64,000 bases of DNA, taken from IMG/VR virus record IMGVR_UViG_3300010396_000041. One strand, given 5' to 3'. The notes below the pieces were generated by a model. That model saw only the letters and a program-made list of their open reading frames with translations. It did no database searches and was not told where the DNA came from. The translations under genes and the position numbers were made by a program. Shown here one piece after another: positions 35,041 through 53,495 of this stretch; the stretch's first letter is position 1, and every line of letters starts with the position of its first letter. The stretch is from a virus (lineage: Duplodnaviria > Heunggongvirae > Uroviricota > Caudoviricetes).

Positions 35041-35050
35041 CCTGCCTCTG

Positions 35051-35195: not shown

Positions 35196-35216
35196 CCCAC
35201 GGGCGCGACCCGTGGA
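35196..35216 (-). terminator. hairpin CCACGGGCGCGACCCGTGG
   Basis: Follows the stop at 35237. Confidence 0.4.
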
Positions 35217-35236
35217 CTCTCAGAGCTCGATTGTAC

Positions 35237-35515
35237 TTACAGCTGGTTGGGCAGGCGCCCTATCGCCTCTAGCCGAGCCAGCGCCAGGCGCGAAGCGCGG
35301 GTGCGCAGCGGCCCCAGGAACTCCCGCGCCCGGTCCAGATTCTCGTTCGCCTCGATGGTCTTGCCCACCTTGATCCAGTCGGCTGCCGAATTCAGGTACA
35401 GATGGCAGACCCACAGGGTCACCTTCGCGCGTTCTCGCCTGGCCGAGCTGGAGGCGGTGGCGAGTTCTTCGCTCGCCCCCTCCAGCTCGATCAGCGTGGT
35501 CTGACGGCGGGTCAC
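35237..35515 (-). CDS. PLRTR-tail family divergent member (92 aa)
   Basis: C-terminus REFLGPLRTRASRLALARLEAIGRL. ATGA-coupled to the upstream paralog. Confidence 0.5.
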   Translation of the reverse strand: MTRRQTTLIELEGASEELATASSSARRERAKVTLWVCHLYLNSAADWIKVGKTIEANENLDRAREFLGPLRTRASRLALARLEAIGRLPNQL

Positions 35516-36069
35516 AGCAGACCCAGCGTCTTGATGTCCTTGATCGCCTTGGTGCTCACGCGGGTGCGCAGGGGACTGAGGATCTTGTGGGCGACGTGCA
35601 GGCGGACGTTCGCGTCGCCGTTGACCCCGCGCAGCAGGAACCCGCGCGCCAAGCGCACCTCGTGGGCGGCGCTGGCCAGCTGCGACTCGGCCTCGTAGGT
35701 GCGGGCGCGCTTCGAGCCGTCCATGAGCGCGAGGAACATCTGATCCAGCTTCTCCATCGCCGCCGCCTTCAGCGCGCTCGGCTGGTGCTCGGCGATGGCT
35801 TCCAGCGCCTCGGTCACCTGCCCGTCGGGCACCTCCTGCGGGTAGAAGCAGTTGAAGACCTGGTCCCAGTCGGCGAGCTCCAGCGTCGAGGTGCGCAGGT
35901 TGGACTTGTCGCGCAGGTACTGCTTCGCGTTGATCTCGAACGCGGCGCGCTCGGTGCCCATGTGCTCGAAGGCACGGCCGTAGCGGGAGCTGCGGTCGGC
36001 GCCTCCGTCGGGCCAGAAGTCCATGTCGAGGTTGCGGATCACCGCGCGGGTGGCGCCCTTGTTCGCCAT
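35512..36069 (-). CDS. PLRTR-tail family paralog 5 (185 aa)
   Basis: ORF 35512..36147 from M27. C-terminus HKILSPLRTRVSTKAIKDIKTLGLL. AAAGGAGA RBS. Confidence 0.6.
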   Translation of the reverse strand: MANKGATRAVIRNLDMDFWPDGGADRSSRYGRAFEHMGTERAAFEINAKQYLRDKSNLRTSTLELADWDQVFNCFYPQEVPDGQVTEALEAIAEHQPSALKAAAMEKLDQMFLALMDGSKRARTYEAESQLASAAHEVRLARGFLLRGVNGDANVRLHVAHKILSPLRTRVSTKAIKDIKTLGLL

Positions 36070-36106
36070 GATCGTCTCCTTTCTGTGGGCTGGTCTCTCC
36101 AGCCTA

Positions 36107-36121
36107 TGAGTAACGTAGCAG
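36107..36121 (-). promoter_or_regulatory. conserved motif TGAGTAACGTAGCAG
   Basis: 38 nt upstream of ATG 36069. Confidence 0.55.
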
Positions 36122-36210
36122 AGCGCGCGGGAGGTGGCACCATTCACTTCGCCGCCCCCTCAAAGTGAATGAGCCCGCCCCCGTGCTGGGGGCGGGCTCG
36201 GCGACCTGTC

Positions 36211-36708
36211 TTACAGGGCCTTGATCATGTGAATCGCCTTCAGGGCGACCCGGGTGCGGATCGGGTAGAGCGTCTTGCGCGCGTCGTCGAGCTGGCCCGC
36301 CTTCAGCTGCCCGGCCGCCTTGGTCAGCACCGTCTTGGACACGTCGGTCTTCGCGGTCTGCACCCCGCCGAGCACGAACTGGATGATCTCGGCGACCGCC
36401 GAGGGCACTTCGGGCTTCGCGGCCTTGCGGATGCGCTTGGCCGGAGCCTTGGGCGCCTCGACGACCGGCTCGGCCGGGGTCTCGGCGACCCTCGCCTGCG
36501 CCTTGGCCTCGTTCTTCGCGCACATCTGGCAGAAGCGACCGCCCTTGGCCATCAGCCGCTCGACCTCGGCGGGGGTGATGTGCTTGCCGCTGACGTCGCC
36601 GTAGCCCCGAGAGACCATGGAACGCGAGGCGGTGGGGCAGTAGGTCGTGTGGACGGTGCCGGTGCCGGTGAGGATGGCGTACTCGTTGTTCTGGCCGTCG
36701 ATCATCAT
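36211..36708 (-). CDS. PLRTR-tail family paralog 6 (165 aa)
   Basis: ORF 36211..36807 from M34. C-terminus DARKTLYPIRTRVALKAIHMIKAL. AGGAGGAAG RBS. Confidence 0.6.
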   Translation of the reverse strand: MMIDGQNNEYAILTGTGTVHTTYCPTASRSMVSRGYGDVSGKHITPAEVERLMAKGGRFCQMCAKNEAKAQARVAETPAEPVVEAPKAPAKRIRKAAKPEVPSAVAEIIQFVLGGVQTAKTDVSKTVLTKAAGQLKAGQLDDARKTLYPIRTRVALKAIHMIKAL

Positions 36709-36748
36709 CTGAATCTTCCTCCTGTTCGGGGCCCGTCTCTCGGGCACA

Positions 36749-36763
36749 TGAGTAATGTAGCAC
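36749..36763 (-). promoter_or_regulatory. conserved motif TGAGTAATGTAGCAC
   Basis: 41 nt upstream of ATG 36708. Confidence 0.55.
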
Positions 36764-36806
36764 AGCCGCAAGAGATGCCGCACCCCCATCTTGAACAGGG
36801 GAAACA

Positions 36807-37196
36807 CTACTTCGTGCGCTCCGGGCGGTCAGGATCAATCGAGACAGTCAGCCACACCCCGTGCAGCTCGAACGCCCTTAACTGGGCAAACATCGCCAGC
36901 TTGAACGCGTCCTCATACGAGTAGCACAGCAGGTGAAGGTCATCGCCCCACGGGACCACCACATTCACCATGTAGTCCTCCCGCAGCACCTTCGGCTCCT
37001 TCGGCGCCGGAAAGAAGATCGAGCCCATCGCCAGCAGCGTGCAGTACCCGCCCAGTGCAGCGATCACCACTGAAACCCGGGTGCCGCCATCCCACGCCGT
37101 GCCCCAAGCCCAGTAAGCGCCAGCGCCGCACAAGCCAGTGACGAACCCCATATAGCCATACGCCTGCCAGGGGCGTCGCCAGGCTGGGTACTTCAT
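36807..37196 (-). CDS. membrane protein (129 aa)
   Basis: ORF 36807..37445 from M84. AAAGGAGG RBS. W/G-rich TM helices. Confidence 0.5.
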   Translation of the reverse strand: MKYPAWRRPWQAYGYMGFVTGLCGAGAYWAWGTAWDGGTRVSVVIAALGGYCTLLAMGSIFFPAPKEPKVLREDYMVNVVVPWGDDLHLLCYSYEDAFKLAMFAQLRAFELHGVWLTVSIDPDRPERTK

Positions 37197-37287
37197 GATC
37201 AAACCTCCTTTCCGTTCCGGACCTTCCGGACTAGGCGGGCGCCGCCCCCCGGGGGGAAAGGGGGCGGTTCCCACCTGGCCCGTTCTG

Positions 37288-37638
37288 TCAGCAGGCCAAG
37301 CCTTCCGGCGAGAAGCGCACCGGCAGTTCATACAGTCGAGGGCTGAAGTCGTACACCCGCACCCCGCCATCGTCCGAGGCGGGCGCGAGCACTTCTGCCA
37401 CCACCAGCTCACGCACCACGCGGGCCATCGCATCCTCCCGGTCAAGGCGGCGCAGCGCTTCGGTCAGCGCGTCCTCGGGCACCTCGACCGGCCCGGTGAC
37501 CTTGCGTGCCTCAGCACACTGATCCCGCCGCGCCTCAGCCAGGCCCCAATACTCGGCCATCGCCTCTCGTCCTTCCTGCGTGCCCGCCAGCGCGACAGCG
37601 CGTTCGTAGGCTGCTTGCAGGTCGTCCTCAGTCACCAT
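37288..37638 (-). CDS. hypothetical protein (116 aa)
   Basis: ORF 37288..37761 from M42. Confidence 0.5.
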   Translation of the reverse strand: MVTEDDLQAAYERAVALAGTQEGREAMAEYWGLAEARRDQCAEARKVTGPVEVPEDALTEALRRLDREDAMARVVRELVVAEVLAPASDDGGVRVYDFSPRLYELPVRFSPEGLAC

Positions 37639-37643
37639 GGCGA

Positions 37644-38027
37644 TCACCGGTTCGGGATGTCGATCGGGTCCATCGGCAGCAGCGTGAAGCCGATGATCGT
37701 GACAGTCCTGGGGTCGCTCACGCGCACCTCGGCGGCGATCTCGTCGCGCATGCGCATGCACAGGTGCGCGGTGGTCTCACCCTCCTGTACCCGCAGCGCA
37801 CCGAAGGAGCTGTGCAGCCGGTGCACCCCAGCGCCCTCAGTCAGCGGGTAGGACACCTGCGCCTGGTAGAGCAGCCAGAGCACCGAGCGGAACTCCCGGC
37901 GGCAGTCGAGGCAGTCGACGTCGCTGTAGGTGGTGCTGGCGCCTTCAGAGGCGACCTCTTCCGGGTCGAACGGTTCGCCAAGCAGGGTGCAGACTGCGGC
38001 GGAGTTGTCGAAGAACTTCAAGTGCAC
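37644..38027 (-). CDS. hypothetical protein (127 aa)
   Basis: ORF track. GTG start with GAGGGAGG RBS. Confidence 0.5.
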   Translation of the reverse strand: MHLKFFDNSAAVCTLLGEPFDPEEVASEGASTTYSDVDCLDCRREFRSVLWLLYQAQVSYPLTEGAGVHRLHSSFGALRVQEGETTAHLCMRMRDEIAAEVRVSDPRTVTIIGFTLLPMDPIDIPNR

Positions 38028-38065
38028 GGTGCCTCCCTCGCTGTTTGCCCGGACCGTCCGGACTA

Positions 38066-38085
38066 GCCGAGCGCCACCCGGTGGG
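38066..38085 (-). terminator. palindrome CCACCCGGTGGGTGG
   Basis: Follows the stop at 38109. Confidence 0.4.
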
Positions 38086-38108
38086 TGGTTCTCAGCTGAC
38101 CCGGACAG

Positions 38109-38396
38109 TTACCGGCACATCGCGTAGGCGAGCAGCGGGACCTGGATCGTGATCGGCTCGTTGAAGGTGCGCATCGCGCCGGTCGGCATCGGGTCGCGCA
38201 TCAGCGCATAGGAGCCGAGGTTGGTGGTGTCGATGAACTCGGCGGCCTGGAGCAGGGTGGGGAACTCGATGTCGACGATGCCGTTCTGGTCGGTGCCGCC
38301 GTGGCGTACGCCGTTGTAGATCTGGGCGGCGGTGGACAGGTCGGTGAGCAGCTGCTCCTCGGCGGCCTTGGCGCGCTCGTTGATGTCGGTGGCCAT
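38109..38396 (-). CDS. hypothetical protein (95 aa)
   Basis: ORF 38109..38813 from M140. AAAGGAGAA RBS. Confidence 0.55.
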   Translation of the reverse strand: MATDINERAKAAEEQLLTDLSTAAQIYNGVRHGGTDQNGIVDIEFPTLLQAAEFIDTTNLGSYALMRDPMPTGAMRTFNEPITIQVPLLAYAMCR

Positions 38397-38431
38397 GGGG
38401 GTTCTCCTTTCGGGGCCCGTACCTCGGGCTA

Positions 38432-38446
38432 TGAGTAACGTAGCAT
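38432..38446 (-). promoter_or_regulatory. conserved motif TGAGTAACGTAGCAT
   Basis: 36 nt upstream of ATG 38396. Confidence 0.6.
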
Positions 38447-38477
38447 GCCTGACGGGGGAGGGGAACCCCCCGGAAGG

Positions 38478-38512
38478 GACAGGGCCCCGGGTAATGCCCC
38501 CCGGGGCCCTGC
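38478..38512 (-). terminator. 10-bp GC hairpin GGGCCCCGGG...CCCGGGGCCC
   Basis: Follows the stop at 38519. Confidence 0.5.
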
Positions 38513-38518
38513 TTGGCG

Positions 38519-38683
38519 CTACTTGCGGCGCCGCTCGACGGCGGCAGCCGCGTCGGCGACGTCCACCTTGGCGTTGGCCACCGCGATGGTGTCGGGGTCG
38601 GCGTTGTCGAGCATCGCCTGCGCCCGCTCCAGGTGCGCGTCGGCCTGGGCCGGGGTGGTCTCGCCCCGGTTGTCGGTGGGCAT
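38519..38683 (-). CDS. hypothetical protein (54 aa)
   Basis: ORF 38519..38758 from M26. GAGAGGAGA RBS. Confidence 0.5.
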   Translation of the reverse strand: MPTDNRGETTPAQADAHLERAQAMLDNADPDTIAVANAKVDVADAAAAVERRRK

Positions 38684-38723
38684 ATGGTCTCCTCTCGTTC
38701 GCGCTCGACAGTTCCGAGCGATA

Positions 38724-38738
38724 CGAGTAACGTAGCAT
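38724..38738 (-). promoter_or_regulatory. conserved motif variant CGAGTAACGTAGCAT
   Basis: 41 nt upstream of ATG 38683. Confidence 0.55.
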
Positions 38739-38764
38739 AGGGCTGCGAGGGGCGGCACGTCCCC

Positions 38765-39226
38765 CTACCAGCGCCGACGCCACCAGAACCCATGGCAGCG
38801 AACCGCCCCGCACATGTCGCAGTGCTCATGCCCAAAGCACTGATCCGCCGAGAACCCACATCCATCAGTGCAATCACGCAGACACCGCCGAGGTTCGCCA
38901 TGCCGCGTCGGACAGGCAGAGATCGGCCCCAGCCACGCCACGATCCGCCCCTGCCTGATGTACATCTGAGCCAGCGTCTTGCTATTGAGCTTCCAATGCT
39001 CCAGATCCTTCTGGAGCCTGCGCACCCACGCCAGGTGTGCCGTCGCCTCCGCCCGCGCCGCCGTCACCTGACCAGTCAGACGGGCACAACGAGCCCTCTC
39101 CGTGGCCAGAGCCTCCTCCGCCCTCTCACGGGCAAGCCGCTCCGCTTTCAGCTCGGCAACCGCGCTCTCCGCCCGCTCCCGCCAGGCATCCCGGCGGCGG
39201 GTCATCTCCTCAACGCCGGTCATCAT
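38765..39226 (-). CDS. coiled-coil protein with Cys/His-rich C-terminus (about 153 aa)
   Basis: ORF 38765..39259; start likely M12 (GGAGGA RBS). C-terminal CLRDCTDGCGFSADQCFGHEHCDMCGAVRCHG. Confidence 0.5.
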   Translation of the reverse strand: MMTGVEEMTRRRDAWRERAESAVAELKAERLARERAEEALATERARCARLTGQVTAARAEATAHLAWVRRLQKDLEHWKLNSKTLAQMYIRQGRIVAWLGPISACPTRHGEPRRCLRDCTDGCGFSADQCFGHEHCDMCGAVRCHGFWWRRRW

Positions 39227-39467
39227 CCATCCTCCACCGTGCGTCATAGCGCTCAGCACACCTCTTACACTGCTTCATCCGCCACCAATGCGGGTTATCG
39301 CTATTGACCTCACTGTCATACGGGCTGACGACCAATGATCGGTAAAACTCGCCGACCTTAATCGAACGAGCATCGCAAGGGTCACACCAGTGCGGCTTAC
39401 GTGCCTTGCGGACCGTCGCCTTGATCACGGCGCCTCGTACAGCTCGTAGCGCACCTTCTGAAGCCAC
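39210..39467 (-). CDS. hypothetical Cys-containing protein (85 aa)
   Basis: ORF track. Confidence 0.5.
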   Translation of the reverse strand: MASEGALRAVRGAVIKATVRKARKPHWCDPCDARSIKVGEFYRSLVVSPYDSEVNSDNPHWWRMKQCKRCAERYDARWRMDDDRR

Positions 39468-40108
39468 TGCTCGATCATCCAGAAGTCAGGCTCCTGCGGC
39501 AGCACCGTCGTAGCGCGCTTGAACGCCTCCTCAGCCGTCGCCATGAACGGCACCGCCGCCTGCGGGTCCTTCTCCACCGCCTCCCCGAAATCCCGGTACC
39601 GCTGCGGGTCAGCCAGACGCACTGTCAGCTCGCCCGTGGTGTAAAGCGAGAACCCTTGATCCACCAGGCGCATCAGATGACGGGCGTGCTTGGCCACCCG
39701 ACGCTCCGGAACATCACTGTCGAACTTCCCCCGGTTCAGCAGTCTGCGGAATTGCTCGGTGGCGTACCCCAGGTACGCGCCCTTGACCCGGTGAGCGCAC
39801 AGGAACGAGCTACGAATCCCGATCAGTTCAGAACCCAGCGGCGTGGTGACCTCGTACTCCTCCAGCCACAAGATCTCATTGACCGTCGGGTTCCCACCCA
39901 GCAGCAGCCGCACCGCCTTCCCAGCCTCGTGCAGGCAGATATCCGGGTCGTGCGAGTCCAGGGTGCTCTTCGGCACCACCAGCCCAAGCAGCCGGGAAGT
40001 GGGCCAAGCGAAGATCCCGAGCCGGTCCACGTCCGACTCCGGGGTCGCCAGCCCATATGCGGTCGAACCGACCACGCCCTGAAGCAGGACCTGCTCTCTC
40101 ACCTTCAC
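39425..40108 (-). CDS. nucleotidyltransferase-fold protein (Pol-beta-like NTase), about 227 aa
   Basis: GSTAYGLATPESDVD matches the GS-x9-13-[DE]x[DE] NTase signature. GTG start with GGAGG RBS (ORF 39425..40222 trimmed). Confidence 0.6.
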   Translation of the reverse strand: MKVREQVLLQGVVGSTAYGLATPESDVDRLGIFAWPTSRLLGLVVPKSTLDSHDPDICLHEAGKAVRLLLGGNPTVNEILWLEEYEVTTPLGSELIGIRSSFLCAHRVKGAYLGYATEQFRRLLNRGKFDSDVPERRVAKHARHLMRLVDQGFSLYTTGELTVRLADPQRYRDFGEAVEKDPQAAVPFMATAEEAFKRATTVLPQEPDFWMIEQWLQKVRYELYEAP

Positions 40109-40695
40109 GGCGCCTCCTTCGCCAACTCGATCAGCTGCTCCTGCGACACCGGCGTGTAATCCCACTGGTCCACCCCTACGTTGATCATCAGCGTGCCTGC
40201 CTCGGTACGCTTGGTTTTCCATGCCTCATGCACATGCCCGCACAGCAGAAGCTTGCCGTCGTCCTCTAGACGCTGCTCGCTGTAACGTTCGGTCCTGGTG
40301 TGATCCCCCGTCCCGCGATACGGCAGATGTGCGATATTCACGCGATCCCGACCAAGCGCGTAGCCCACGGCGGTGCCTTCGGTGTGGATGATGGAGAACC
40401 CTGCCTCCATGTACTCCCGTACCCACCGCTTCCACCGCTTGTGATACTCCCAGCAGGCGTCGTGGTTCCCGGCGACCAGGATCTTCGTTCCGTTCAAGCG
40501 GTTGACGTTGAGCAGACCAGGGCGCCCGATCGCAACGTCGCCGAGCACCCACACCATGTCCTCGGGAGCGACCACCTGGTTCCAGCGGTAGACCATCTCG
40601 TCGTTCATCTGCGTCACCGTCTTGAACGGCCGGTAGCACAACTCGATGATCCGCTCGTGGCCGAAGTGATGGTCCGAGGTGTAGAACACGTTCAT
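40105..40695 (-). CDS. calcineurin-like metallophosphoesterase (196 aa)
   Basis: GDVAIG...GNHD...GHVH motifs. ATGA-coupled to the NTase gene. Confidence 0.8.
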   Translation of the reverse strand: MNVFYTSDHHFGHERIIELCYRPFKTVTQMNDEMVYRWNQVVAPEDMVWVLGDVAIGRPGLLNVNRLNGTKILVAGNHDACWEYHKRWKRWVREYMEAGFSIIHTEGTAVGYALGRDRVNIAHLPYRGTGDHTRTERYSEQRLEDDGKLLLCGHVHEAWKTKRTEAGTLMINVGVDQWDYTPVSQEQLIELAKEAP

Positions 40696-41021
40696 CCCTG
40701 CTTACCCTCCCTCTTCTCCTTACGCTCCCGCGCCGCCTTCGCCTTCGAGTAGCGGTCCCAGCGGTTGAGCTTGTGCGGCCTGGTGCGCTGATACTCCCGG
40801 TTCGCGGTCGTGCACAGCTCACACCGGCACTTCCAGTTGACATAGCCGTTGTATGTTCCATGTGGAACAAGCTCCGGGTTCGCCTCGGTGATCGCCTTCT
40901 GCTTCTCCCGGCGCTCCCGCGATGCCCTAGCTGCCGCAGCCCTGCACTCCTGACAGCGACAGCCCTTCGTGTACATCGACCGGGTGCCGTGCTCAGCAGT
41001 GCCTTTCTTGCCCGCCGCCAT
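40692..41021 (-). CDS. tandem CRC-motif zinc-ribbon protein (109 aa)
   Basis: HGTRSMYTKGCRCQEC and HGTYNGYVNWKCRCELC; K/R-rich tail. Confidence 0.55.
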   Translation of the reverse strand: MAAGKKGTAEHGTRSMYTKGCRCQECRAAAARASRERREKQKAITEANPELVPHGTYNGYVNWKCRCELCTTANREYQRTRPHKLNRWDRYSKAKAARERKEKREGKQG

Positions 41022-41280
41022 CCCGCTTCTCCCTCCGCTTCCTGTTCCCGATGCTGCCCACCGCCTTGCAGCGCTCGCAGCGGCACCCCCAGTTGAAGTA
41101 GCCGCTATCAGTACCGTGCGGAACCCGGGAGTCGCCAGCGGCGACCATTGCCGTGCGCTGCGCCCGGTAGTGCTTCATGCGGTCCGAGTGGCCTGCCTTG
41201 CATGCCTCGCACCGGCAGCCCTTGGCGTAGGCGGAAGGAGTGCCGTGCTTCAGGTCACGCTCTTTCTTCACGCGAGCCAT
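40993..41280 (-). CDS. tandem CRC-motif zinc-ribbon protein (95 aa)
   Basis: ORF 40993..41304 from M9. HGTPSAYAKGCRCEAC, HGTDSGYFNWGCRCERC. Confidence 0.55.
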   Translation of the reverse strand: MARVKKERDLKHGTPSAYAKGCRCEACKAGHSDRMKHYRAQRTAMVAAGDSRVPHGTDSGYFNWGCRCERCKAVGSIGNRKRREKRDGGGQERHC

Positions 41281-41447
41281 CCGTCCTTCACCAGCTCGTA
41301 GCACAAGTCGAGTCGTACTACGAGGTCAGGGTCAAGGTATTTCGACCAGTCGACCTTCTCGCCGCACGCCCCGCAGGTGGCCCCTTCGCCAGGGACGACC
41401 TCGATCTCACACGTCGGGTGCCAGCAGGCGCCTATCTCTTGTCCCAT
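41268..41447 (-). CDS. Cys-rich mini-protein (59 aa)
   Basis: Manual: MGQEIGACWHPTCEIEVVPGEGATCGACGEKVDWSKYLDP... Confidence 0.4.
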   Translation of the reverse strand: MGQEIGACWHPTCEIEVVPGEGATCGACGEKVDWSKYLDPDLVVRLDLCYELVKDGWLA

Positions 41448-41863
41448 CCAAGATCACGCTCCATCAGCTCGATCTCCTTCGCCTTCTCCTGCGCTGCCGC
41501 CTCCCGCTGGCGCTTCGAGCTACGCCCCGACCCTGTCGCGAACCGCGCCACGCCCTTAAGCCACCAGCGCGACCCGATGAACATCCACGCCAGCGGCCAG
41601 AAGAACCCAAATACTGACGCGCCGATCAAATCGCTTTTGTGCTCGTTCTTCTGATAGTGGCGCTGTGCTTCAGAAAGGTTCGGGAACTTCTGGCGGTACT
41701 GAACGCTCCCGCCCCAGGTGCGACCATCAGGCACGTGAATGCCGCACTCCAGGTAGTTGTCGATCGTCACTGAACGCCACAGCCCGTAGAGGTACCGCGT
41801 CGTGAGAAGGCTGGCGCCGCCCTGCGCGGCCACCAGCCCAAGCACGAGTAAAGCAGTGCTCAT
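41432..41863 (-). CDS. membrane protein (about 143 aa)
   Basis: ORF 41432..41890, likely from M10. Confidence 0.5.
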   Translation of the reverse strand: MSTALLVLGLVAAQGGASLLTTRYLYGLWRSVTIDNYLECGIHVPDGRTWGGSVQYRQKFPNLSEAQRHYQKNEHKSDLIGASVFGFFWPLAWMFIGSRWWLKGVARFATGSGRSSKRQREAAAQEKAKEIELMERDLGWDKR

Positions 41864-42072
41864 CGCACCCCCAGGCCTTTGTAAAGCCACTCGATTGCCG
41901 CACCGACTCGATCATCCAGGTAGAACGGGTCGATACCTGCTTCCCGCATCCGGTTGGCCAGCTCCACATCCAACGTGCTGACCGCGTTGAACAGAGCCTG
42001 ACCCACCCGATACTGCGGGTAGCGTTCCAACATCTCCCGCCACAGGTTGAAGATCTCTTCCATCGAGTTCAT
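41860..42072 (-). CDS. hypothetical protein (70 aa)
   Basis: ORF track. Confidence 0.5.
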   Translation of the reverse strand: MNSMEEIFNLWREMLERYPQYRVGQALFNAVSTLDVELANRMREAGIDPFYLDDRVGAAIEWLYKGLGVR

Positions 42073-42875
42073 CGGACCGGCTTCGTCGGGTGCGGCGGGT
42101 ACTCGATCTCAGCCCAGTGCGTCACCTCGTCATCCAGGTGCGTGCCATTGCACTCGATGAAGCTGTCGCCGTCGAAGTAGCCGATCTCAACCGGGTAGTA
42201 GTCACCGTCCATCTTCTGCCGAGGCTTGAGCGCCAGCCACAGCGGCTCATCCCAGATGATCGCCGCCCGGTCCGTCACCGACCGCCAGGTCACCGTATGC
42301 GGGTGCGCCACCCGGATCGGGCCGAGCCAGCCAGGCGGAGGCGCCGTCACCACCACCTGCGGGCCGCGTGCGTCGATGTCGTCCAACGCTTCGTTGAACT
42401 TCTTACGCAGCTCGACGGTATGCGGGTGATCGTCTGGAAGGAACCGCCACGGGCCAGCCAGCAGCTCCTCCAGGTCCTTGTCGCCGTCAGCGTCGTACGG
42501 CTGGGATTCGACGAACTTCTTCAGCGCCTCGGTCTCCTCCGCCGTGATCGGCTTCTTCGGGTCGCGGCAGCAGCCGTCGCAGCCATGGACCGATTCGGTG
42601 CTGGCGAACTCCTCACCGCCGTTACGACGGGCGAAAGCAAGCGAGTCCGGGTCCGGATGCCCGCAGCCGTGCGGGCAGGTGCGCTCCGCCAGAACGAACA
42701 CCGGGCCGCGTACCACCGCCGTCGCGGTAGAGCCTTCGATGGTGATGGCAGGCATCTCCACCGCGCGGTCGATGCGGTAGACGATCGGCCATTCGTTCAT
42801 GTGGTGATCACTTGGGTTGTGCACCACGCAGGGATGCCCGTCACACTGCATCGGGCTGTGCGTCCTTACCGTCAT
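42069..42875 (-). CDS. hypothetical protein with Cys/His clusters (268 aa)
   Basis: ORF 42069..42920 from M16. Confidence 0.55.
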   Translation of the reverse strand: MTVRTHSPMQCDGHPCVVHNPSDHHMNEWPIVYRIDRAVEMPAITIEGSTATAVVRGPVFVLAERTCPHGCGHPDPDSLAFARRNGGEEFASTESVHGCDGCCRDPKKPITAEETEALKKFVESQPYDADGDKDLEELLAGPWRFLPDDHPHTVELRKKFNEALDDIDARGPQVVVTAPPPGWLGPIRVAHPHTVTWRSVTDRAAIIWDEPLWLALKPRQKMDGDYYPVEIGYFDGDSFIECNGTHLDDEVTHWAEIEYPPHPTKPVR

Positions 42876-43326
42876 CGGCGTGTTCCTCTCTGTTGATCTG
42901 CCGCTGCCGCCATGCCTCATATGCGTTCAACACCTCAGCAAACCCGTGCATGATCGAGCCGTTGCGGCGGTGATCTTTACCGGCGACCCGATCGAACACC
43001 GTCTTCACCTCATCGGGCACCGTCTGCGCGGTGAACGTCATCTGCTGCATCGCCGCCAGCCGTGCCGCTTTCGCTTTCGCTCGGCGGGCACGGTCGTACT
43101 CCCGTGCGTAGGCCTTGCATTCCTCACACCGGCACCGCCACATCGCGTACGCGGTAAGCGTGCCGTGCTCAGGTACCTGATTCGGGTCTACTGCCGCCAG
43201 CGCCTGGCATACCTTCCGCTGCTTCGCCGAGACCTCGGCGTTCGCGGTCTTGCACGGTTGGCAGCGGCACCCCTGGGCGTAGCGCTCAGGAGTACCGCAC
43301 TGCCGCTCGATCTTGCGAGCTACCAC
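42841..43326 (-). CDS. tandem CRC-motif zinc-ribbon protein (161 aa)
   Basis: CGTPERYAQGCRCQPC, HGTLTAYAMWRCRCEEC. Confidence 0.55.
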   Translation of the reverse strand: MVARKIERQCGTPERYAQGCRCQPCKTANAEVSAKQRKVCQALAAVDPNQVPEHGTLTAYAMWRCRCEECKAYAREYDRARRAKAKAARLAAMQQMTFTAQTVPDEVKTVFDRVAGKDHRRNGSIMHGFAEVLNAYEAWRQRQINREEHADDGKDAQPDAV

Positions 43327-43327
43327 A

Positions 43328-43501
43328 TCACTCCTTGCTCTCCTCGTAGTTGAACGAGGACCAACCGCCGAGCACAGCGGCGAACCCGGTCACGGCCGAG
43401 TACTGCCACGTGTGCAGATGCAGCACGAACCTACCGATCACGAAGGCGACCACGCCCCACACGATCAAGCCGATGAGTCCGTAGGTGAGTTTCTGCCTCA
43501 C
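43328..43501 (-). CDS. small membrane protein (57 aa)
   Basis: GTG start in a GTGA overlap. Real part of ORF 43328..43669. Confidence 0.4.
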   Translation of the reverse strand: MRQKLTYGLIGLIVWGVVAFVIGRFVLHLHTWQYSAVTGFAAVLGGWSSFNYEESKE

Positions 43502-43689
43502 TGATGCGCACCCTTCGTCAGCTTGCGGCGCAGCATGAACGCCGCGAAGATCGCCAGCACCGCGTCGGCGGCAGCCACGTACCACGAGCCGCCGGTCCCG
43601 GCCTCGATGACCGCCGAGAGCACCATGGCGCCGAGGAAGAACCCCCACACCCCGGCACGGACCTGCCACACGAACCTAACCTTCGGCAT
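43498..43689 (-). CDS. small membrane protein (63 aa)
   Basis: ORF track. Confidence 0.45.
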   Translation of the reverse strand: MPKVRFVWQVRAGVWGFFLGAMVLSAVIEAGTGGSWYVAAADAVLAIFAAFMLRRKLTKGAHQ

Positions 43690-43846
43690 GCTTGACCTCC
43701 ACGATGTGGTAGTAGCCGCACTGACAGACCTTGACCTCGTGGTCCTTGCCCGTCAGCGCCGAGCGCTTCTCGCAGGGACCGCCCGGTCCTTCAGCGTCCT
43801 CACGGCGCGAGAACTTGAACGCGCCGGGGTGCTCACACTCGCCCAT
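43676..43846 (-). CDS. Cys-containing mini-protein (56 aa)
   Basis: Manual: MGECEHPGAFKFSRREDAEGPGGPCEKRSALTGKDHEVKVCQCGYYHIVEVKHAEG. Confidence 0.4.
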   Translation of the reverse strand: MGECEHPGAFKFSRREDAEGPGGPCEKRSALTGKDHEVKVCQCGYYHIVEVKHAEG

Positions 43847-44133
43847 CACTTACCTACCAAGACCTGGTGGATACCGGGGGCCAGCTTCTGCTCGAAGAAC
43901 ACGACGATCTCGTCGTCGCCGACCTTCACCCTGATCTCGTTGTCGGGCACCGAGATGCACCGGTCGTCCTGGGCATTGATCCGCGCGGTCTCCTGGTTCA
44001 GCTCCAGCCACTTCGTCTTGGCCTGGTTGATGGCCCGCTGAACCTCGTTCCAGCAGGCGCCGAAGCCGGGGTCGACCGGCACCACCCACTCATGCCGCAG
44101 CGTGACGGCGCTGCGGTGGTACACATCAGTCAT
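43846..44133 (-). CDS. hypothetical protein (95 aa)
   Basis: ORF 43846..44169 from M13. AGGAGGAAC RBS. Confidence 0.5.
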   Translation of the reverse strand: MTDVYHRSAVTLRHEWVVPVDPGFGACWNEVQRAINQAKTKWLELNQETARINAQDDRCISVPDNEIRVKVGDDEIVVFFEQKLAPGIHQVLVGK

Positions 44134-44441
44134 TCGGTTCCTCCTGTTCCGGGGTGGGGGGGTTCCCACCTGCTAAGGATCGGTGCGGGCTTCGGTACCC
44201 GCGCCGGTGTCGAGTGCACCACGCGGTCAAAGAACCGGCACAGGCACAGATCGCAGATGTTGATCACCAGACGGGAGCCGTCCATCTCGTCGAAGACAGC
44301 CGATCCGAAGTTGCCGGGAGAGGAGAACATCACCGCGCCCCATGCCTGGGTCGAGGGGAAGTCGCCGTCAGGTACGTCGAACGCGGCAGGCAGCTCCTTG
44401 CCGCAGGTGAAGCACGGCGGGGGCAGCGTCAGGTCAGTCAT
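44130..44441 (-). CDS. hypothetical protein (103 aa)
   Basis: ORF track. Confidence 0.5.
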   Translation of the reverse strand: MTDLTLPPPCFTCGKELPAAFDVPDGDFPSTQAWGAVMFSSPGNFGSAVFDEMDGSRLVINICDLCLCRFFDRVVHSTPARVPKPAPILSRWEPPHPGTGGTE

Positions 44442-44766
44442 CGATCCCTTCCGTCCAGTACTCGTTGAGGATGTAGCCGGTGGCGAACATGTCGCCGGTG
44501 AAGCCCAGGCGCTTGGCTCCGGGGCGTCGCTCGGCGAACAGAGACCAGAACCGGTTGGCGAACCCGAAGCCTCTCGGAGAGGTCTGCTCGCGCCATTCCA
44601 GGCGCTGCGGGGTCGAGTTGGGGTTGCGTTCGCGGTCGCGTCGGACGTAATGCTCTTCTGCGTCGCGCTGTGCCTGTTCGAGGGTGCCGCGCAGACGCGG
44701 GCAGATCACCACTCCCGATTTGCCGTAGGACCAGCCGTAGGCGACCTTGTGGGCTACTTCACCCAT
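44434..44766 (-). CDS. hypothetical protein (110 aa)
   Basis: ORF 44434..44817 from M18. Confidence 0.5.
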   Translation of the reverse strand: MGEVAHKVAYGWSYGKSGVVICPRLRGTLEQAQRDAEEHYVRRDRERNPNSTPQRLEWREQTSPRGFGFANRFWSLFAERRPGAKRLGFTGDMFATGYILNEYWTEGIDD

Positions 44767-44939
44767 GGGCCGGTCACCCCCATATGCCGGTGCTGGGTGC
44801 GCAGGCAGCGCGAGCACAGGCGCGCCTCGGTCTCCGGGTCGCCGGTGGGGTACCAGGGCTCGGGCGTGTGGGCGCGGTGCTTACAGATGAGGTAGTAAGC
44901 CAGCCACTCGATCACGTCCAAGATCCATTCAGGCACCAT
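44754..44939 (-). CDS. hypothetical protein (61 aa)
   Basis: ORF 44754..45044 from M36. GAGGAGACC RBS. Confidence 0.45.
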   Translation of the reverse strand: MVPEWILDVIEWLAYYLICKHRAHTPEPWYPTGDPETEARLCSRCLRTQHRHMGVTGPWVK

Positions 44940-45075
44940 CGTCGGTCTCCTCGTCCTCGCGCGGCAGGCAGGCTGCATCGAGCCGGTTGCAGATCCAGTA
45001 GCGGATCGGCTTGGGCAGGTGAAGCCGGTGGCTGGTCTGGTCAATGAAGATCCAGGCCCGCAGGGGCAGCCGCAT
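44929..45075 (-). CDS. hypothetical protein (48 aa)
   Basis: ORF 44929..45282 from M70. GAGAGGAGAG RBS. Confidence 0.4.
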   Translation of the reverse strand: MRLPLRAWIFIDQTSHRLHLPKPIRYWICNRLDAACLPREDEETDDGA

Positions 45076-45090
45076 GATCTCTCCTCTCTC

Positions 45091-45105
45091 GGAGTAGCGT
45101 AGCAT
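45091..45105 (-). promoter_or_regulatory. conserved motif variant GGAGTAGCGTAGCAT
   Basis: Only 16 nt upstream of ATG 45075, the shortest spacer of the family. Confidence 0.5.
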
Positions 45106-45259
45106 TGCCCAGCCTGAGTACGCGAGGACCGCTACTAGGAGCCCTTCTCCCGCGCTCTCCCCCCGCCCGTGGGGCATGAGCCCAGAGAGCTCGGGAAAGC
45201 GCGGGAGAAGCCCGGAGAACGCCGCAGGGCCCCCGTAGGGGCCCTGGGCTTCGAGCGGG

Positions 45260-46078
45260 TCAGCTGCCGAGCGCGTGGTCAAGCTCCTTCAGCGCGGTCT
45301 CGTACTGCCCCGCCTCGATGTACTCGACCGCCTTGTCCATCGACGCGCACTGCTCTGGGAAGGCTGAACGCCACTCGTTCGCCAGCTCCATCAGCTTCAT
45401 GGTGATGTCGTCCGCGTGCACACCCGCCGCCTGCCCCGGCCAGATCTTGGCGGCGATCTTGTCGAGCATGTCGCGGTCGGCCGAGCGCACGACCTCGACG
45501 TTGTCAGCCGAGGTGAACACCCGCTGCCCCTGGTAGTCGAAGCCGACCCGGTAGAAGCTCGCCCAGCGGCTGGAGCGGTACTTGTCCTCGCCGAACCAGG
45601 TGATCACCAGCTCGGTGCCTACCGGGATGTTCAGCCCGCCCTTGTTCTTCGGGGTCTTGATCACCTTGACCGTCTTGACGGTACGACCGGCACGGGGGGT
45701 GTTCGCCTCCTGCTCGAACGCCCGCTCACGCTGCGCCCTGCGCTGCTCGACCTGATAGGCCTTGTACGCGGCCTTGACCTCCTCGGTCGCGTCCACGCTG
45801 GCGCTGTTGGCATAGGTCCAGCCTCGGGTGGTCGCGTACTCGATCTCGCGCGGGCCGCCGAGCTCAGCGTCCCAGACGATCGCGTAGAAGTCGCTGTCGT
45901 CATGGTGGTTGTGCTCGCCGAGGGAGAGCACGCAGCCGACCCATGTGGTCTCGAAGTACTCGGGCTTGGAGTGCTTGACGCTGGTCAGGCGCTCCAGCTC
46001 GGCGGGGTTGACCAGCTCGTAGGTCGGGCTGCCGAGGCGGGTGGGGTCCTGCTGGCTGGTCAGCCGCTTGATCGCCAT
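45260..46078 (-). CDS. hypothetical protein (272 aa)
   Basis: ORF track. GGAAGGAG RBS. Confidence 0.6.
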   Translation of the reverse strand: MAIKRLTSQQDPTRLGSPTYELVNPAELERLTSVKHSKPEYFETTWVGCVLSLGEHNHHDDSDFYAIVWDAELGGPREIEYATTRGWTYANSASVDATEEVKAAYKAYQVEQRRAQRERAFEQEANTPRAGRTVKTVKVIKTPKNKGGLNIPVGTELVITWFGEDKYRSSRWASFYRVGFDYQGQRVFTSADNVEVVRSADRDMLDKIAAKIWPGQAAGVHADDITMKLMELANEWRSAFPEQCASMDKAVEYIEAGQYETALKELDHALGS

Positions 46079-46115
46079 GGTGTTCGTCTCCTTCCGGGCG
46101 CGTCTCTCGCGCTAT

Positions 46116-46130
46116 GGAGTAGCGTAGCAT
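46116..46130 (-). promoter_or_regulatory. conserved motif variant GGAGTAGCGTAGCAT
   Basis: 38 nt upstream of ATG 46078. Confidence 0.55.
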
Positions 46131-47147: not shown

Positions 47148-47162
47148 GTGAGTACAGTAGCA
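47148..47162 (-). promoter_or_regulatory. conserved motif variant TGAGTACAGTAGCAT
   Basis: 40 nt upstream of ATG 47108. Confidence 0.5.
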
Positions 47163-51656: not shown

Positions 51657-51821
51657 CTAGAAGGCGACCAGGCGCCGACGAGCGGCACGGCGGGCACGAA
51701 GATCGTGCATATAGTCGGTGTTGGCCTGGGTGCAGCGGGGGCAGCGGCACTTGTGGTTCACATAGCCGTTGCGCGTCCCGTGCTTGATGTCAGGAGCGAC
51801 GTACCGCTTGGTGGTGGTCAT
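51657..51821 (-). CDS. single CRC-motif zinc-ribbon protein (54 aa)
   Basis: ORF 51657..51992 from M58. HGTRNGYVNHKCRCPRC. GAGGAGAC RBS. Confidence 0.5.
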   Translation of the reverse strand: MTTTKRYVAPDIKHGTRNGYVNHKCRCPRCTQANTDYMHDLRARRAARRRLVAF

Positions 51822-52414
51822 GCCTTGTCTCCTCGGGCCTTGACGAAGTCCCCGAGCCGCGCCCGTGCCCATTGAGAGGGTAGGGCGCTGATGTCCGCAG
51901 GCTGAACATTGTCGGTGCCCAGACGCATGGCGAGCTTGGCCAGGGAGTCGGCGCACTCGTTGAGAGGGTGGCCGATGTGACCGGGCTGCCACAGGTAGTC
52001 GATCTCCGGGTGCGTAGCGACGAGCGCTGCGAAGTCTTCCAGTCTCGGCTGGGGGACGTTCTCCGGCTGATAGAACAGGGGACGGTGGCGCTTGTACTCC
52101 GGGGGGAGTATGTCCTGGTCACCGTTGCGCCAGGCCGTCAAGAACTTCACCGCGTCCTGAGAGTCAGTCAGTACGGTGATACGTGCGCCGAGCCCACGCT
52201 TGTGGAGCGCGTAGTAAACGGCGTACAGCTCATATACGGCGTTGTCAGCGAGCACCGGTTTCACGGTGCGTAGACGTGCCGCCCACGTGCCGTCAGTGGC
52301 GACGTGGGCAAGACCGATGCAGCCGGTCTCTGAACTGATGGCAGCGTCAGCGGCGATGATCAGATCGCCGGGGATGGGCTCGACGGCGCCGTCCATGGTG
52401 TATCGACGCCGCAT
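51818..52414 (-). CDS. ribonuclease H (198 aa)
   Basis: DGA...GC.G...TDSQ...QPGHIGHPLNECADSLAK. Confidence 0.7.
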   Translation of the reverse strand: MRRRYTMDGAVEPIPGDLIIAADAAISSETGCIGLAHVATDGTWAARLRTVKPVLADNAVYELYAVYYALHKRGLGARITVLTDSQDAVKFLTAWRNGDQDILPPEYKRHRPLFYQPENVPQPRLEDFAALVATHPEIDYLWQPGHIGHPLNECADSLAKLAMRLGTDNVQPADISALPSQWARARLGDFVKARGDKA

Positions 52415-52427: not shown

Positions 52428-52598
52428 CTAGGTGCGTGCCCGGTGGCGGGCGCGCGCGGCGGTCAGGCTTTCGGGGGTGGTGACTGAGCAGTAGATGGTC
52501 GGGTCTACCTGGGAGCGCAATTCTTTGAGCGCCGCTCGCACGCTGGCGTGATTGAGCTTGCCAGCGCGCTGGAGCAACAGCGTCGGGTCCTTACGCAA
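52428..52598 (-). CDS. possible small protein (about 56 aa, TTG start)
   Basis: GGAAGGAG 10 nt upstream of TTG, downstream of the motif copy at 52647. Weak. Confidence 0.25.
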   Translation of the reverse strand: MRKDPTLLLQRAGKLNHASVRAALKELRSQVDPTIYCSVTTPESLTAARARHRART

Positions 52599-52646
52599 GG
52601 TTGCCGAGCTCCTTCCGCTTAATCGGTAGCGGCGGGAATGCCGCTT

Positions 52647-52661
52647 TGAGTAGCGTAGCAC
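52647..52661 (-). promoter_or_regulatory. conserved motif TGAGTAGCGTAGCAC (leftward member of a divergent pair)
   Basis: Back-to-back with 52706-52720. Confidence 0.55.
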
Positions 52662-52705
52662 GCGAGAGGGGGTGTACCCCAGAGTCAGGCCCTCGCGCTG
52701 GTCTC

Positions 52706-52720
52706 ATGCTACGCTACTCA
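52706..52720 (+). promoter_or_regulatory. conserved motif ATGCTACGCTACTCA (rightward member of a divergent pair)
   Basis: 31 nt upstream of GTG 52752 (queE). Confidence 0.6.
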
Positions 52721-52751
52721 GGTAAGGATCAGCTCACCCCGAAAGGCCCCC

Positions 52752-53495
52752 GTGGACAACCTTCTCGTCAACGAGATCTTCGGACCCACCATTCAAGGAG
52801 AGGGCGCAGCCGCTGGCAGGCACTGCCTGTTCGTGCGCCTGGCCCTGTGCAACCTCGAATGCTCCTGGTGCGACACCCCCTACACCTGGGCGCTGACCCC
52901 GCAGAAGGCAGCCAAGCACGCCAGCGGCAAGCAGTACGACAAGACCACCCAGGTACGCGAGATGACTCCGGGCCAGGTCATCGACGCACTCACCAACCTG
53001 TGGAACATCAAGGTCAGTCCGACCATGGTGGTGGTCTCCGGCGGCGAACCGCTGATGCAGCGCAATCAGCTTCCCGAGCTGGCGCGCAGGCTTCATGACC
53101 TGGGCTGCCCGCTGCACATCGAAACTGCGGGCACGCTCATTCCCCCGAGTGAGCTCACCGACGGGGTCGCTCAGTACAACGTCTCGCCCAAGCTGGCCAA
53201 CAGCGGCAATGTGTTGACCAAGCGGTTCAAGCCCTCCGTGCTCGCTCACTTCGCCAGCCTCGATCAGGCGTGGTTCAAGTTCGTCGCGACCTCTCCCGCT
53301 GACCTCGATGAGATCGATGGGATTGTGGCGATGACCGGCATTCGTGCCGATCGGGTCATGATCATGCCTGAGGGGGTGACCCCTGGCGGGAACCTGGCCG
53401 TGGGCAGGGCAATCGCCGATGCTGTGATCGGCCGTGGCTTTGGTCTGACCTTGAGGAGCCATATCTTGCTTTGGGGCGATGAGAGAGGGCGCTAG
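52752..53495 (+). CDS. queE: 7-carboxy-7-deazaguanine synthase, radical SAM (247 aa)
   Basis: CNLECSWCDTPYTW cluster. SGGEPL. Confidence 0.85.
   Translation: MDNLLVNEIFGPTIQGEGAAAGRHCLFVRLALCNLECSWCDTPYTWALTPQKAAKHASGKQYDKTTQVREMTPGQVIDALTNLWNIKVSPTMVVVSGGEPLMQRNQLPELARRLHDLGCPLHIETAGTLIPPSELTDGVAQYNVSPKLANSGNVLTKRFKPSVLAHFASLDQAWFKFVATSPADLDEIDGIVAMTGIRADRVMIMPEGVTPGGNLAVGRAIADAVIGRGFGLTLRSHILLWGDERGR

What the first reader, a model, noticed from the sequence alone, without database searches (positions are those of the whole stretch)
52647..52720. Back-to-back divergent copies of the 15-bp motif marking the switch between the leftward and rightward gene arms
Seen in sequence. TGAGTAGCGTAGCAC (52647-52661) and ATGCTACGCTACTCA (52706-52720) face away from each other 44 bp apart. 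To the right start queE and the replication/recombination arm; to the left run RNase H, the CRC protein and the dpd/que genes. This is the architecture expected of a divergent early promoter/operator region.
Basis: partly seen in the sequence, partly recalled or inferred. Interest (0 to 1): 0.55.

Follow-up and report, generated by a model that had tools for sequence, protein, structure and literature searches.

The report
Back-to-back phage promoter pair
The two inverted 15-bp boxes are most likely two back-to-back promoters, read by the host RNA polymerase, that start the leftward and rightward non-structural gene arms of an uncultured high-GC phage; this is well supported by sequence, but it is an ordinary kind of element.

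Summary
TGAGTAGCGTAGCAC (52647-52661) and ATGCTACGCTACTCA (52706-52720) are an inverted pair, 44 nt apart, at the only left/right gene-strand switch in this part of the window.

The box TGCTACGYTACTCA occurs 24 times at ≤2 mismatches, against 0.26 expected. It is almost always intergenic and co-oriented with the next gene.

- **Promoter signature.** The box reads as an actinobacterial housekeeping-sigma promoter: extended -10 TGn-TANNNT, variation confined to the NNN positions, and a purine about 7 nt downstream.
- **Flanking elements.** A weak GTGCC -35-like element lies 18 nt upstream in most copies, but in neither copy of this pair. Most copies are followed by a 5'-terminal hairpin, a Shine-Dalgarno sequence and a start codon.
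- **One leaderless case.** In one copy the predicted start site is the A of an ATG.
- **Distribution.** Portal, tail-fibre-like and terminase genes have no copies.
- **Conservation.** The back-to-back pair sits at the same junction in six related metagenomic contigs. Both boxes are invariant, while the spacer differs in sequence and length (46, 54 and 83 nt).

No operator is detectable, and "early" timing is inferred only. No transcript data exist. This is a new member of a known kind, of modest interest.

The parts
52647..52661 (-). Leftward promoter box P_L. It reads GTGCTACGCTACTCA on the - strand: TG at 52660-52659 and -10 hexamer TACGCT at 52657-52652.
   Evidence: Invariant in six related contigs.
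52706..52720 (+). Rightward promoter box P_R, ATGCTACGCTACTCA: TG at 52707-52708 and -10 hexamer TACGCT at 52710-52715.
   Evidence: Conserved in six related contigs.
52662..52705 (.). Spacer between the boxes. It holds both -35 regions, but neither matches the family's GTGCC element well. It contains the small palindrome GGGGT-GT-ACCCC at 52669-52680.
   Evidence: The palindrome is unique in the window as an exact match. The spacer is not conserved between clades.
52645..52646 (-). Predicted transcription start of P_L: an A, 6-7 nt after the -10 hexamer.
   Evidence: Inference from family position 15, a purine in 34 of 41 copies, and from the leaderless ATG at the same position in the copy at 10801.
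52721..52722 (+). Predicted transcription start of P_R: a G.
   Evidence: Same inference.
52628..52645 (-). 5'-terminal hairpin of the P_L transcript: AGCGGC-ATTCCC-GCCGCT.
   Evidence: Orthologous promoters in relatives keep a hairpin here with different stem sequences.
52609..52616 (-). Shine-Dalgarno sequence GGAAGGAG for the first leftward gene.
   Evidence: Conserved in relatives.
52428..52598 (-). Small conserved ORF (56 aa, TTG start), the first gene of the leftward arm. Function unknown.
   Evidence: No Pfam or PHROG hit. Differences between the window and L028 in the conserved N- and C-terminal parts are synonymous. It is called as a 55-aa gene in L036.
51818..52414 (-). RNase H gene, second gene of the leftward arm.
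   Evidence: Pfam PF00075, E=7e-11.
52741..52746 (+). Shine-Dalgarno-like GAAAGG in front of queE. This 30-nt leader has no 5' hairpin.
52752..53495 (+). queE (radical-SAM 7-carboxy-7-deazaguanine synthase-like), first gene of the rightward arm.
   Evidence: Pfam Radical_SAM and Fer4_12. 90% nt identity over 230 nt to the QueE gene of Gordonia phage Sour.
53536..53549 (+). Next family copy in the rightward arm (TGCTACGCTACTCG). It follows a terminator-like hairpin and precedes the ParB-like gene, whose real start is 53613.
47149..47162 (-). Next family copy in the leftward arm (TGCTACTGTACTCA), after folE.
   Evidence: Conserved in L032.
10801..10814 (+). Family copy whose predicted start site is the A of the ATG at 10816 (ORF 10816-11034, GC3 0.92): a leaderless mRNA.
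23155..46129 (-). Stretch holding 16 further - strand copies at <=2 mismatches, starting at 23155, 25057, 25627, 26121, 26755, 27226, 30410, 30954, 35051, 36107, 36749, 38432, 38724, 45091, 46116, plus 14563 outside this stretch. Each lies in front of a gene.

Best explanation
The two boxes are two independent, back-to-back promoters of one phage promoter family. The family is recognised by the host's housekeeping sigma factor (SigA/HrdB type) as extended -10 promoters (TGn + TANNNT).

- **P_L (- strand).** It starts transcription near 52645. The transcript opens with a 5'-terminal hairpin, followed by an SD, a 56-aa ORF, RNase H, ParB_N, the two dpdA paralogues and the que/folE genes.
- **P_R (+ strand).** It starts near 52722, 30 nt ahead of queE, and heads the replication and recombination arm.
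- **Dependence on the extended -10.** Neither copy has the family's -35-like GTGCC, so both probably rely on the extended -10 alone.
- **Temporal class.** The same promoter type is reused in front of most non-structural genes and is missing from the packaging and structural genes. It is therefore the pre-late (early/middle) promoter class.

What is shown: sequence anatomy, statistics and conservation. What is inferred: sigma identity, start sites and timing.
For: 1. **Abundance and orientation.** There are 24 copies against 0.26 expected. Orientation tracks gene strand across the window plus 9.5 kb of right flank.

2. **Mismatch spectrum.** Positions 0-5 (TGCTAC) and 10 are invariant. Variation falls at positions 6 and 7, the NNN of TANNNT, and at 13. 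This matches the -10 reported for mycobacteria (TANNNT, no bias in NNN; PMC6448022). It also matches Streptomyces: TANNNT, -35 NTGAC, 18-19 nt spacer, purine start, C at -1 and T at +2 (PMC6614810). In the family, position 14 is C or T, position 15 is A or G in 34 of 41 copies, and position 16 is T or G. A T-G dinucleotide lies at -20/-19, giving an 18-nt spacer.

3. **Fixed downstream module.** A stem of >=5 bp closing a 5-nt loop begins 0-6 nt after the box in 22 of 41 copies, against 6.5% at random positions (p=5e-16). The stems all differ in sequence. The SD lies at +22 to +26 and the ATG at +32 to +40.

4. **Leaderless case.** In the copy at 10801 the predicted start site is the A of the ATG of a high-GC3 ORF with no SD.

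5. **Upstream structure.** The upstream 60 nt are more structured than random (-24.3 vs -19.0 kcal/mol, p=2e-6), consistent with terminator-like hairpins ending the previous unit.

6. **Absence from late genes.** There are no copies in the portal, tail-fibre-like or terminase regions (1-9528 and 17003-22964).

7. **Conservation of the pair.** The back-to-back pair is present at the syntenic junction in L032, L035, L036, L034, L028 and L025. RNase H identity to the window runs from about 91% down to 40%. The boxes are 100% conserved blocks in otherwise divergent DNA.
Against: - There are no transcript or 5'-end data.
- A generic sigma-70 scan does not call the boxes, because TACGCT matches TATAAT at only 3 of 6 positions.
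- Neither copy of the pair has a convincing -35.
- Positions that SigA is not known to require (C2, C5, and A9-C12 'ACTC') are as conserved as the -10 itself, even across clades. An additional or different reader cannot be excluded.
- The host is unknown; an actinobacterial host is suggested only by GC content and a WhiB-like gene.
- About 33 kb of the ~106-kb genome was not examined for a phage RNA polymerase or sigma factor.
Confidence: 0.8

Rival explanations
1. The box is primarily, or additionally, the binding site of a phage-encoded factor. This could be an asymmetric repressor site of the stoperator type, or a promoter class read by a phage-specific sigma or appropriator such as the WhiB-like protein. 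The pair would then be a regulated control point rather than two plain host promoters.
For: - The 14-bp box is conserved well beyond TGnTANNNT. TGCTAC and C10 are invariant, and A9/T11/C12 nearly so, in 41 copies from three clades.
- The sites are asymmetric and oriented with transcription, as Cluster A stoperators are (PMC4351075).
- The phage encodes XRE-type, WhiB-like and other HTH proteins.
- The spacer length of 46 nt is kept in four contigs although the sequence falls to 46% identity.
Against: - The variation pattern is exactly that of a -10 hexamer.
- The -35-like element, purine start site, 5'-hairpin/SD module and one leaderless ATG all sit at promoter-appropriate distances.
- Many copies follow terminator-like hairpins, so a new promoter is needed there.
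- No integrase or immunity repressor was identified in the window, and no sigma factor was found among the proteins scanned.
Confidence: 0.13
2. The boxes are promoters for a phage-encoded single-subunit RNA polymerase. The core TACG..ACTCA loosely recalls the T7 promoter TACGACTCAC.
For: Only the length and strict conservation of the box, plus a resemblance to the T7 promoter recalled from memory.
Against: - No RNA polymerase gene was found in the 73.5 kb examined.
- The 877-aa ORF (6895-9528) is a Thr/Gly-rich tail-fibre-like protein, and the 698-aa ORF is a repetitive charged protein. Neither has a Pfam hit, the 877-aa ORF has only one weak PHROG hit, and neither has a PDB sequence match.
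- Genes needed immediately after infection carry this box, so a virion-delivered polymerase would be required.
Confidence: 0.03
3. The inverted repeat acts as a DNA structure (a cruciform), for example as a replication origin, packaging signal or partition signal at the strand switch, rather than through its two halves separately.
For: - The 88-nt segment folds as single-stranded DNA at -24 kcal/mol, z = -4.1.
- It lies at the strand switch, 2.4 kb from a replication-initiator gene, and ParB-like genes flank it.
Against: - The complementarity is essentially the two boxes themselves.
- The same box occurs about 30 times singly.
- Relatives keep the boxes but change spacer length and sequence.
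- There is no GC-skew inflection at the site.
- The box is not palindromic, as parS sites are.
Confidence: 0.03

Closest known systems
Actinobacterial SigA/HrdB extended -10 promoters (TGn-TANNNT)
   Same: The TG at -15/-14, invariant T-12, A-11 and T-7, free NNN positions, a purine start about 7 nt downstream, C/T at -1, and an 18-nt spacer to a TG-containing -35-like element in most copies.
   Different: C at -13 and -10 and the discriminator ACTC are also near-invariant. Cellular promoter sets do not show this. The two copies of the pair lack the -35-like element.
Arrays of near-identical early promoters in lytic phages (T4, T5, SPO1-type), and the divergent SigA-like promoters PL1/PR2 of Cluster O mycobacteriophages
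   Same: Many copies of one strong host-type promoter lie in front of small non-structural genes. A divergent pair in one intergenic region starts two arms (PMC4351075). The T4, T5 and SPO1 comparison rests on general knowledge.
   Different: - The phage lineage is unrelated: the best cultured TerL match is <48% identical.
- The box sequence was not found in the literature library.
- The Cluster O pair is AT-rich and leaderless, whereas here both transcripts have leaders.
Stoperators of Cluster A mycobacteriophages
   Same: Short asymmetric sites, tens per genome, intergenic and oriented with transcription.
   Different: Stoperators are repressor sites in temperate phages and do not carry a -10 signature. 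Here the site has promoter anatomy, and no immunity repressor or integrase was identified in the window.
Lambda-type divergent promoter/operator control regions (PR/PRM with OR)
   Same: Two divergently oriented promoters share one short intergenic region.
   Different: There are no repeated operator half-sites, no conserved spacer, and no adjacent recognisable repressor or Cro gene.
5'-terminal stem-loop mRNA stabilisers (ompA leader type; phage SP82 and B. subtilis 5' stabilisers)
   Same: A hairpin begins within about 2 nt of the predicted 5' end, with purine-rich, SD-like loops (AGAGA, AAGGA). The comparison rests on general knowledge.
   Different: The function is untested here. P_R of the pair lacks the hairpin.

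Membership tests
Sigma-70-family (SigA/HrdB) extended -10 promoter | -10 hexamer TANNNT with invariant T, A and T | tested here: met
   T3 and A4 are present in 41 of 41 copies and T8 in 40 of 41. Variation is confined to positions 6 and 7. Both copies of the pair read TACGCT.
Sigma-70-family (SigA/HrdB) extended -10 promoter | TG dinucleotide one base upstream of the -10 hexamer | tested here: met
   TGC precedes TAC in 41 of 41 copies at <=2 mismatches.
Sigma-70-family (SigA/HrdB) extended -10 promoter | -35 element 17-19 nt upstream (optional for extended -10 promoters) | tested here: inconclusive
   The family shows T/G at -20/-19 (GTGCC, 18-nt spacer). P_L has only cTGGGG and P_R has nothing convincing.
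Sigma-70-family (SigA/HrdB) extended -10 promoter | Intergenic position, co-oriented with the downstream gene | tested here: met
   The exceptions are 55116(-), 16970(+) and 12371(+).
Sigma-70-family (SigA/HrdB) extended -10 promoter | Transcripts initiate 6-8 nt downstream, dependent on the holoenzyme | not testable with these tools
   Indirect only: a purine at position 15 and one leaderless ATG at that position.
Divergent promoter/operator control region (lambda OR type) | Repeated, usually dyad-symmetric, operator sites between or over the promoters | tested here: not met
   The spacer palindrome GGGGTGTACCCC is unique in the window as an exact match. No further repeat family maps to the spacer.
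Divergent promoter/operator control region (lambda OR type) | Operator sequence and geometry conserved among relatives | tested here: not met
   Spacers are 46, 54 and 83 nt. Ungapped identity falls to 46% within the 46-nt group.
Divergent promoter/operator control region (lambda OR type) | Cognate regulator binds the region | not testable with these tools
   The adjacent 56-aa ORF has no recognisable DNA-binding domain.
Cluster A-type stoperator | Asymmetric site oriented with transcription, many per genome | tested here: met
Cluster A-type stoperator | Temperate phage with an immunity repressor that binds the site | tested here: inconclusive
   No integrase or immunity repressor was recognised among the proteins scanned. 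Not all ORFs, and not the whole genome, were scanned.
T7-like single-subunit RNAP promoter | Phage encodes the cognate RNA polymerase | tested here: not met
   None was found in the 73.5 kb examined. The two large unassigned ORFs are not polymerase-like. About 33 kb of the genome was not seen.

The most novel reading that the evidence does not exclude
The box may be more than a host-type -10. Its invariant extra positions (C at -13 and -10, discriminator ACTC) are kept across three diverged clades. They could mark a phage-specific promoter class read by host RNAP together with a phage or host specificity factor, for example a WhiB-like or sigma-appropriating protein. Coupled to it would be a dedicated 5'-terminal hairpin with an A-initiated purine pentaloop, acting as a post-transcriptional module. 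The divergent pair, with its clade-fixed 46-nt spacing, would then be the master switch of that regulon.
Probability: 0.15. Interest if true: 0.6.

Novelty: new member of a known kind. Interest (0 to 1): 0.33.

Why it matters
The result gives a working transcription map for an uncultured lineage of ~106-115-kb high-GC phages with no cultured relative. These phages carry 7-deazaguanine DNA-modification genes and 24 tRNAs.

It identifies one reusable, compact expression cassette: terminator hairpin, extended -10 promoter, 5' hairpin and SD. It also corrects gene starts: several ORFs that appear to begin 'MLRYS' are artefacts of translating the box.

The promoter could serve as a strong portable promoter for high-GC Actinobacteria if the host is confirmed. 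It does not change any general concept.

Tried and rejected
- **Generic sigma-70 scan.** It does not call the boxes, because its criterion is E. coli TATAAT. This says little for high-GC hosts.
- **Exact 15-mer scan of IMG/VR.** Most hits were single chance matches. One contig, L006, turned out to be a true relative.
- **Closest assemblies L016-L018.** They are identical in the junction, so they carry no information.
- **RNase H and FolE of the window as queries in IMG/VR.** They found nothing, and the relative's own FolE had to be used instead.
- **Pair pattern in GTDB genomes.** There were no hits, so no prophage or host clue.
- **Rfam on 52300-52900.** No hits.
- **GC skew.** There is no inflection at the switch, so an origin is not supported.
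- **Large unassigned ORFs as candidate RNA polymerases.** Rejected.
- **Spacer palindrome as a recurrent operator.** Rejected.
- **Literature search for the box sequence.** No paper in the library holds it.
- **Portal ORF look-up for the left flank.** It failed, so about 27 kb on the left and about 6 kb on the right of the contig remain unseen.

Full report
**Observation.** One search shows TGAGTAGCGTAGCAC at 52647-52661 and ATGCTACGCTACTCA at 52706-52720. They are reverse complements at 14 of 15 positions, with 44 nt between them. The left copy reads leftward on the - strand and the right copy reads rightward on the + strand, so they are back to back.

The 14-mer TGCTACGCTACTCA has 24 matches at ≤2 mismatches in the 64-kb window, against 0.26 expected and a maximum of 3 in 100 shuffles. 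At ≤3 mismatches there are 29. A GC3-based gene map shows that copy orientation follows gene orientation. Copies are + at 9551-12371, - from 14563 to 52647, and + from 52707 onward. Four more + copies lie in the 9.5 kb beyond the right end of the window (L030). The pair sits exactly where gene orientation flips.

**Genes on either side.**
- Leftward arm: a 56-aa ORF (52428-52598), RNase H (51818-52414), a ParB_N protein, two DpdA/TGT-like paralogues, QueC, QueD/PTPS and GTP cyclohydrolase I.
- Rightward arm: QueE (52752-53495), a ParB-like protein whose real start is 53613, a replication initiator, a zinc-finger protein, an endonuclease VII-like protein, a WhiB-like protein, YqaJ and RecT.

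**Source of the window.** It matches an ENA metagenome contig of 106.5 kb. It has 65% GC, 24 tRNA genes and no close cultured relative. Only 230 nt of queE match Gordonia phage Sour, and the best TerL match is below 48% identity.

**What the box is.** The position table gives the consensus a-TGC-TAC-(G/A)(C/T)-T-ACTC-A-y-R.
- Positions 0-5 and 10 never vary in 41 copies from three genomes.
- Nearly all variation is at positions 6 and 7 and at 13.
- This is the pattern expected of an extended -10 promoter, TGn-TANNNT. TG, T-12, A-11 and T-7 are fixed and the middle of the hexamer is free.
- Genome-wide start-site maps report TANNNT with no base preference in NNN for mycobacteria (PMC6448022).
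- For Streptomyces they report TANNNT, a weaker NTGAC -35, a preferred 18-19-nt spacer, a purine start, C at -1 and T at +2 (PMC6614810).
- The family fits these values. Seven nt after the hexamer there is a purine in 34 of 41 copies, preceded by C/T and followed by T/G. A T-G (GTGCC/GTGCG) lies 18 nt upstream of the hexamer in most copies.
- The E. coli-type scan does not call the boxes, because TACGCT matches TATAAT at only three positions.

**Downstream and upstream context.**
- Most copies are followed, 2-3 nt after the box, by a 5-7-bp stem closing a 5-nt loop. The SD then lies at +22 to +26 and the ATG at +32 to +40.
- Such a hairpin occurs in 22 of 41 copies, against 6.5% of random positions (p=5e-16). 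The stems all differ in sequence. The loops start with A in 21 of 22 cases and are 79% purine.
- With a start at position 15, the hairpin sits at the very 5' end of the mRNA. That is the geometry of known 5' stabilisers; this last point is inference.
- In the copy at 10801, position 15 is the A of the ATG of a 72-aa, high-GC3 ORF with no SD. This looks like a leaderless mRNA and is an independent pointer to the start site.
- The 60 nt upstream of the boxes are more structured than random (-24.3 vs -19.0 kcal/mol, p=2e-6). Several contain obvious terminator-like hairpins. Many genes are therefore separate units that need their own promoter.
- No copy lies in the portal, tail-fibre-like or terminase regions. 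The box therefore marks the non-structural, pre-late class.

**The pair itself.**
- P_L has TG at 52660-52659, TACGCT at 52657-52652 and a predicted start at about 52645. Its hairpin AGCGGC/ATTCCC/GCCGCT spans 52645-52628. The SD GGAAGGAG lies at 52616-52609 and the TTG at 52598.
- P_R has TG at 52707-52708, TACGCT at 52710-52715 and a predicted start at about 52722. It has no hairpin. The SD-like GAAAGG lies at 52741-52746 and the GTG of queE at 52752.
- Neither has the family's GTGCC at the -35 position, so both probably depend on the extended -10.
- The predicted starts are about 77 bp apart.

**Comparative evidence.** Relatives came from three searches:
- the box itself (L006);
- the relative's FolE and a DpdA alignment (L025, L028);
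- homologues of the RNase H (P0001-P0005; L032-L036).

Every contig that spans the junction has the back-to-back pair. These are L032, L035 and L036 (46-nt spacer, as in the window), L034 and L028 (54 nt), and L025, a 115-kb IMG/VR contig (83 nt). In L025 queE has moved and the ParB-like gene abuts the pair, and its proteins are 37-69% identical to the window's.

In the six-way alignment the two boxes are blocks of complete identity within variable DNA. Within the 46-nt group the spacer falls to 46% ungapped identity without changing length. The orthologous RNase H-side promoters keep a 5' hairpin with different stems, and the queE-side promoters never have one.

**Operator question.**
- The spacer's small palindrome GGGGTGTACCCC (52669-52680) is unique in the window as an exact match.
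- A loose G-run/C-run pattern in the spacers resembles the general G-rich -35 and C-rich spacer composition of the whole family, not a specific site.
- Spacer length differs between clades, and the helical phase is not kept.
- The long DNA hairpin predicted for the segment is simply the two boxes pairing.
- There is no Rfam match and no GC-skew signal.

There is thus no positive evidence for an operator, an origin or a structural role.

**What remains open.** C at -13 and -10 and the ACTC discriminator are conserved as strictly as the -10 itself, which SigA recognition does not explain. No RNA polymerase or sigma gene was found in the 73.5 kb examined. About 33 kb of the genome was not seen. 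A phage-specific reader or a shut-off regulator acting on the box therefore stays possible, at about 0.15.

**Verdict.** The element is a new member of a known kind: a phage host-type promoter array with a divergent pair at the arm switch. It is comparable to the divergent SigA-like PL1/PR2 of Cluster O mycobacteriophages, and distinct from Cluster A stoperators (PMC4351075).

Noticed in passing
window 55047-55116: A face-to-face (convergent) promoter-like pair, conserved in L028, L032 and L034. The + strand carries GGGCGCTACTGTGTCATGCC (-10 TACTGT, no TG). The - strand carries a family copy, TGCTACGTCACTCT (55116-55103). The predicted starts are about 36 nt apart. The - strand transcript has a strong hairpin (-18.7 kcal/mol) and no SD or ORF. 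It is a candidate antisense RNA against the leader of the replication-initiator gene.
   Followed up: partly
window 52428-52598 (-): A 56-aa ORF with a TTG start is the first gene after P_L, and the ENA gene caller missed it. Its N terminus (MRKDPTLLL) and C terminus (LTAARARHRxRT) are conserved in relatives with only synonymous differences, while the middle is variable. No family match; function unknown.
   Followed up: partly
window 53535-53612 and 52601-52751: ORFs that appear to begin 'MLRYS...' are artefacts. ATGCTACGCTACTCA translates as M-L-R-Y-S. The true start of the ParB-like gene is 53613, after an SD.
   Followed up: yes
window 10801-10816 (+): A family copy whose predicted start site coincides with the ATG of ORF 10816-11034, apparently a leaderless mRNA.
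   Followed up: partly
window 23215-25715 and 35512-36807 (-): A paralogous family of ~190-aa genes of unknown function. Each has its own promoter/hairpin/SD cassette, so some box copies spread by gene duplication.
   Followed up: no
window 32516-34165 (-): A TROVE (Ro60-like) plus VWA domain protein, conserved at 45% identity in the 115-kb relative. An SPFH/Band 7 protein lies next to it (31464-32456).
   Followed up: no
window 12127-16864 (-): An array of 24 tRNA genes, one with an odd anticodon call. No family promoter lies directly upstream of it. A weak opposite-strand copy, TATTACGCTACTCG, sits at 16970.
   Followed up: no
window 2598-6884 (-): A 1428-aa ORF with a portal domain in the N-terminal part and a ParB-like segment near residue 1200, an unusually long portal fusion. 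Two DpdA/TGT paralogues lie in tandem at 48992-50994.
   Followed up: no
window 9529-9600: A second divergent junction. The + copy at 9551 lies 23 nt from the start (9528) of the leftward tail-fibre-like gene. There is no - strand copy, so the late operon must use a different promoter type.
   Followed up: no
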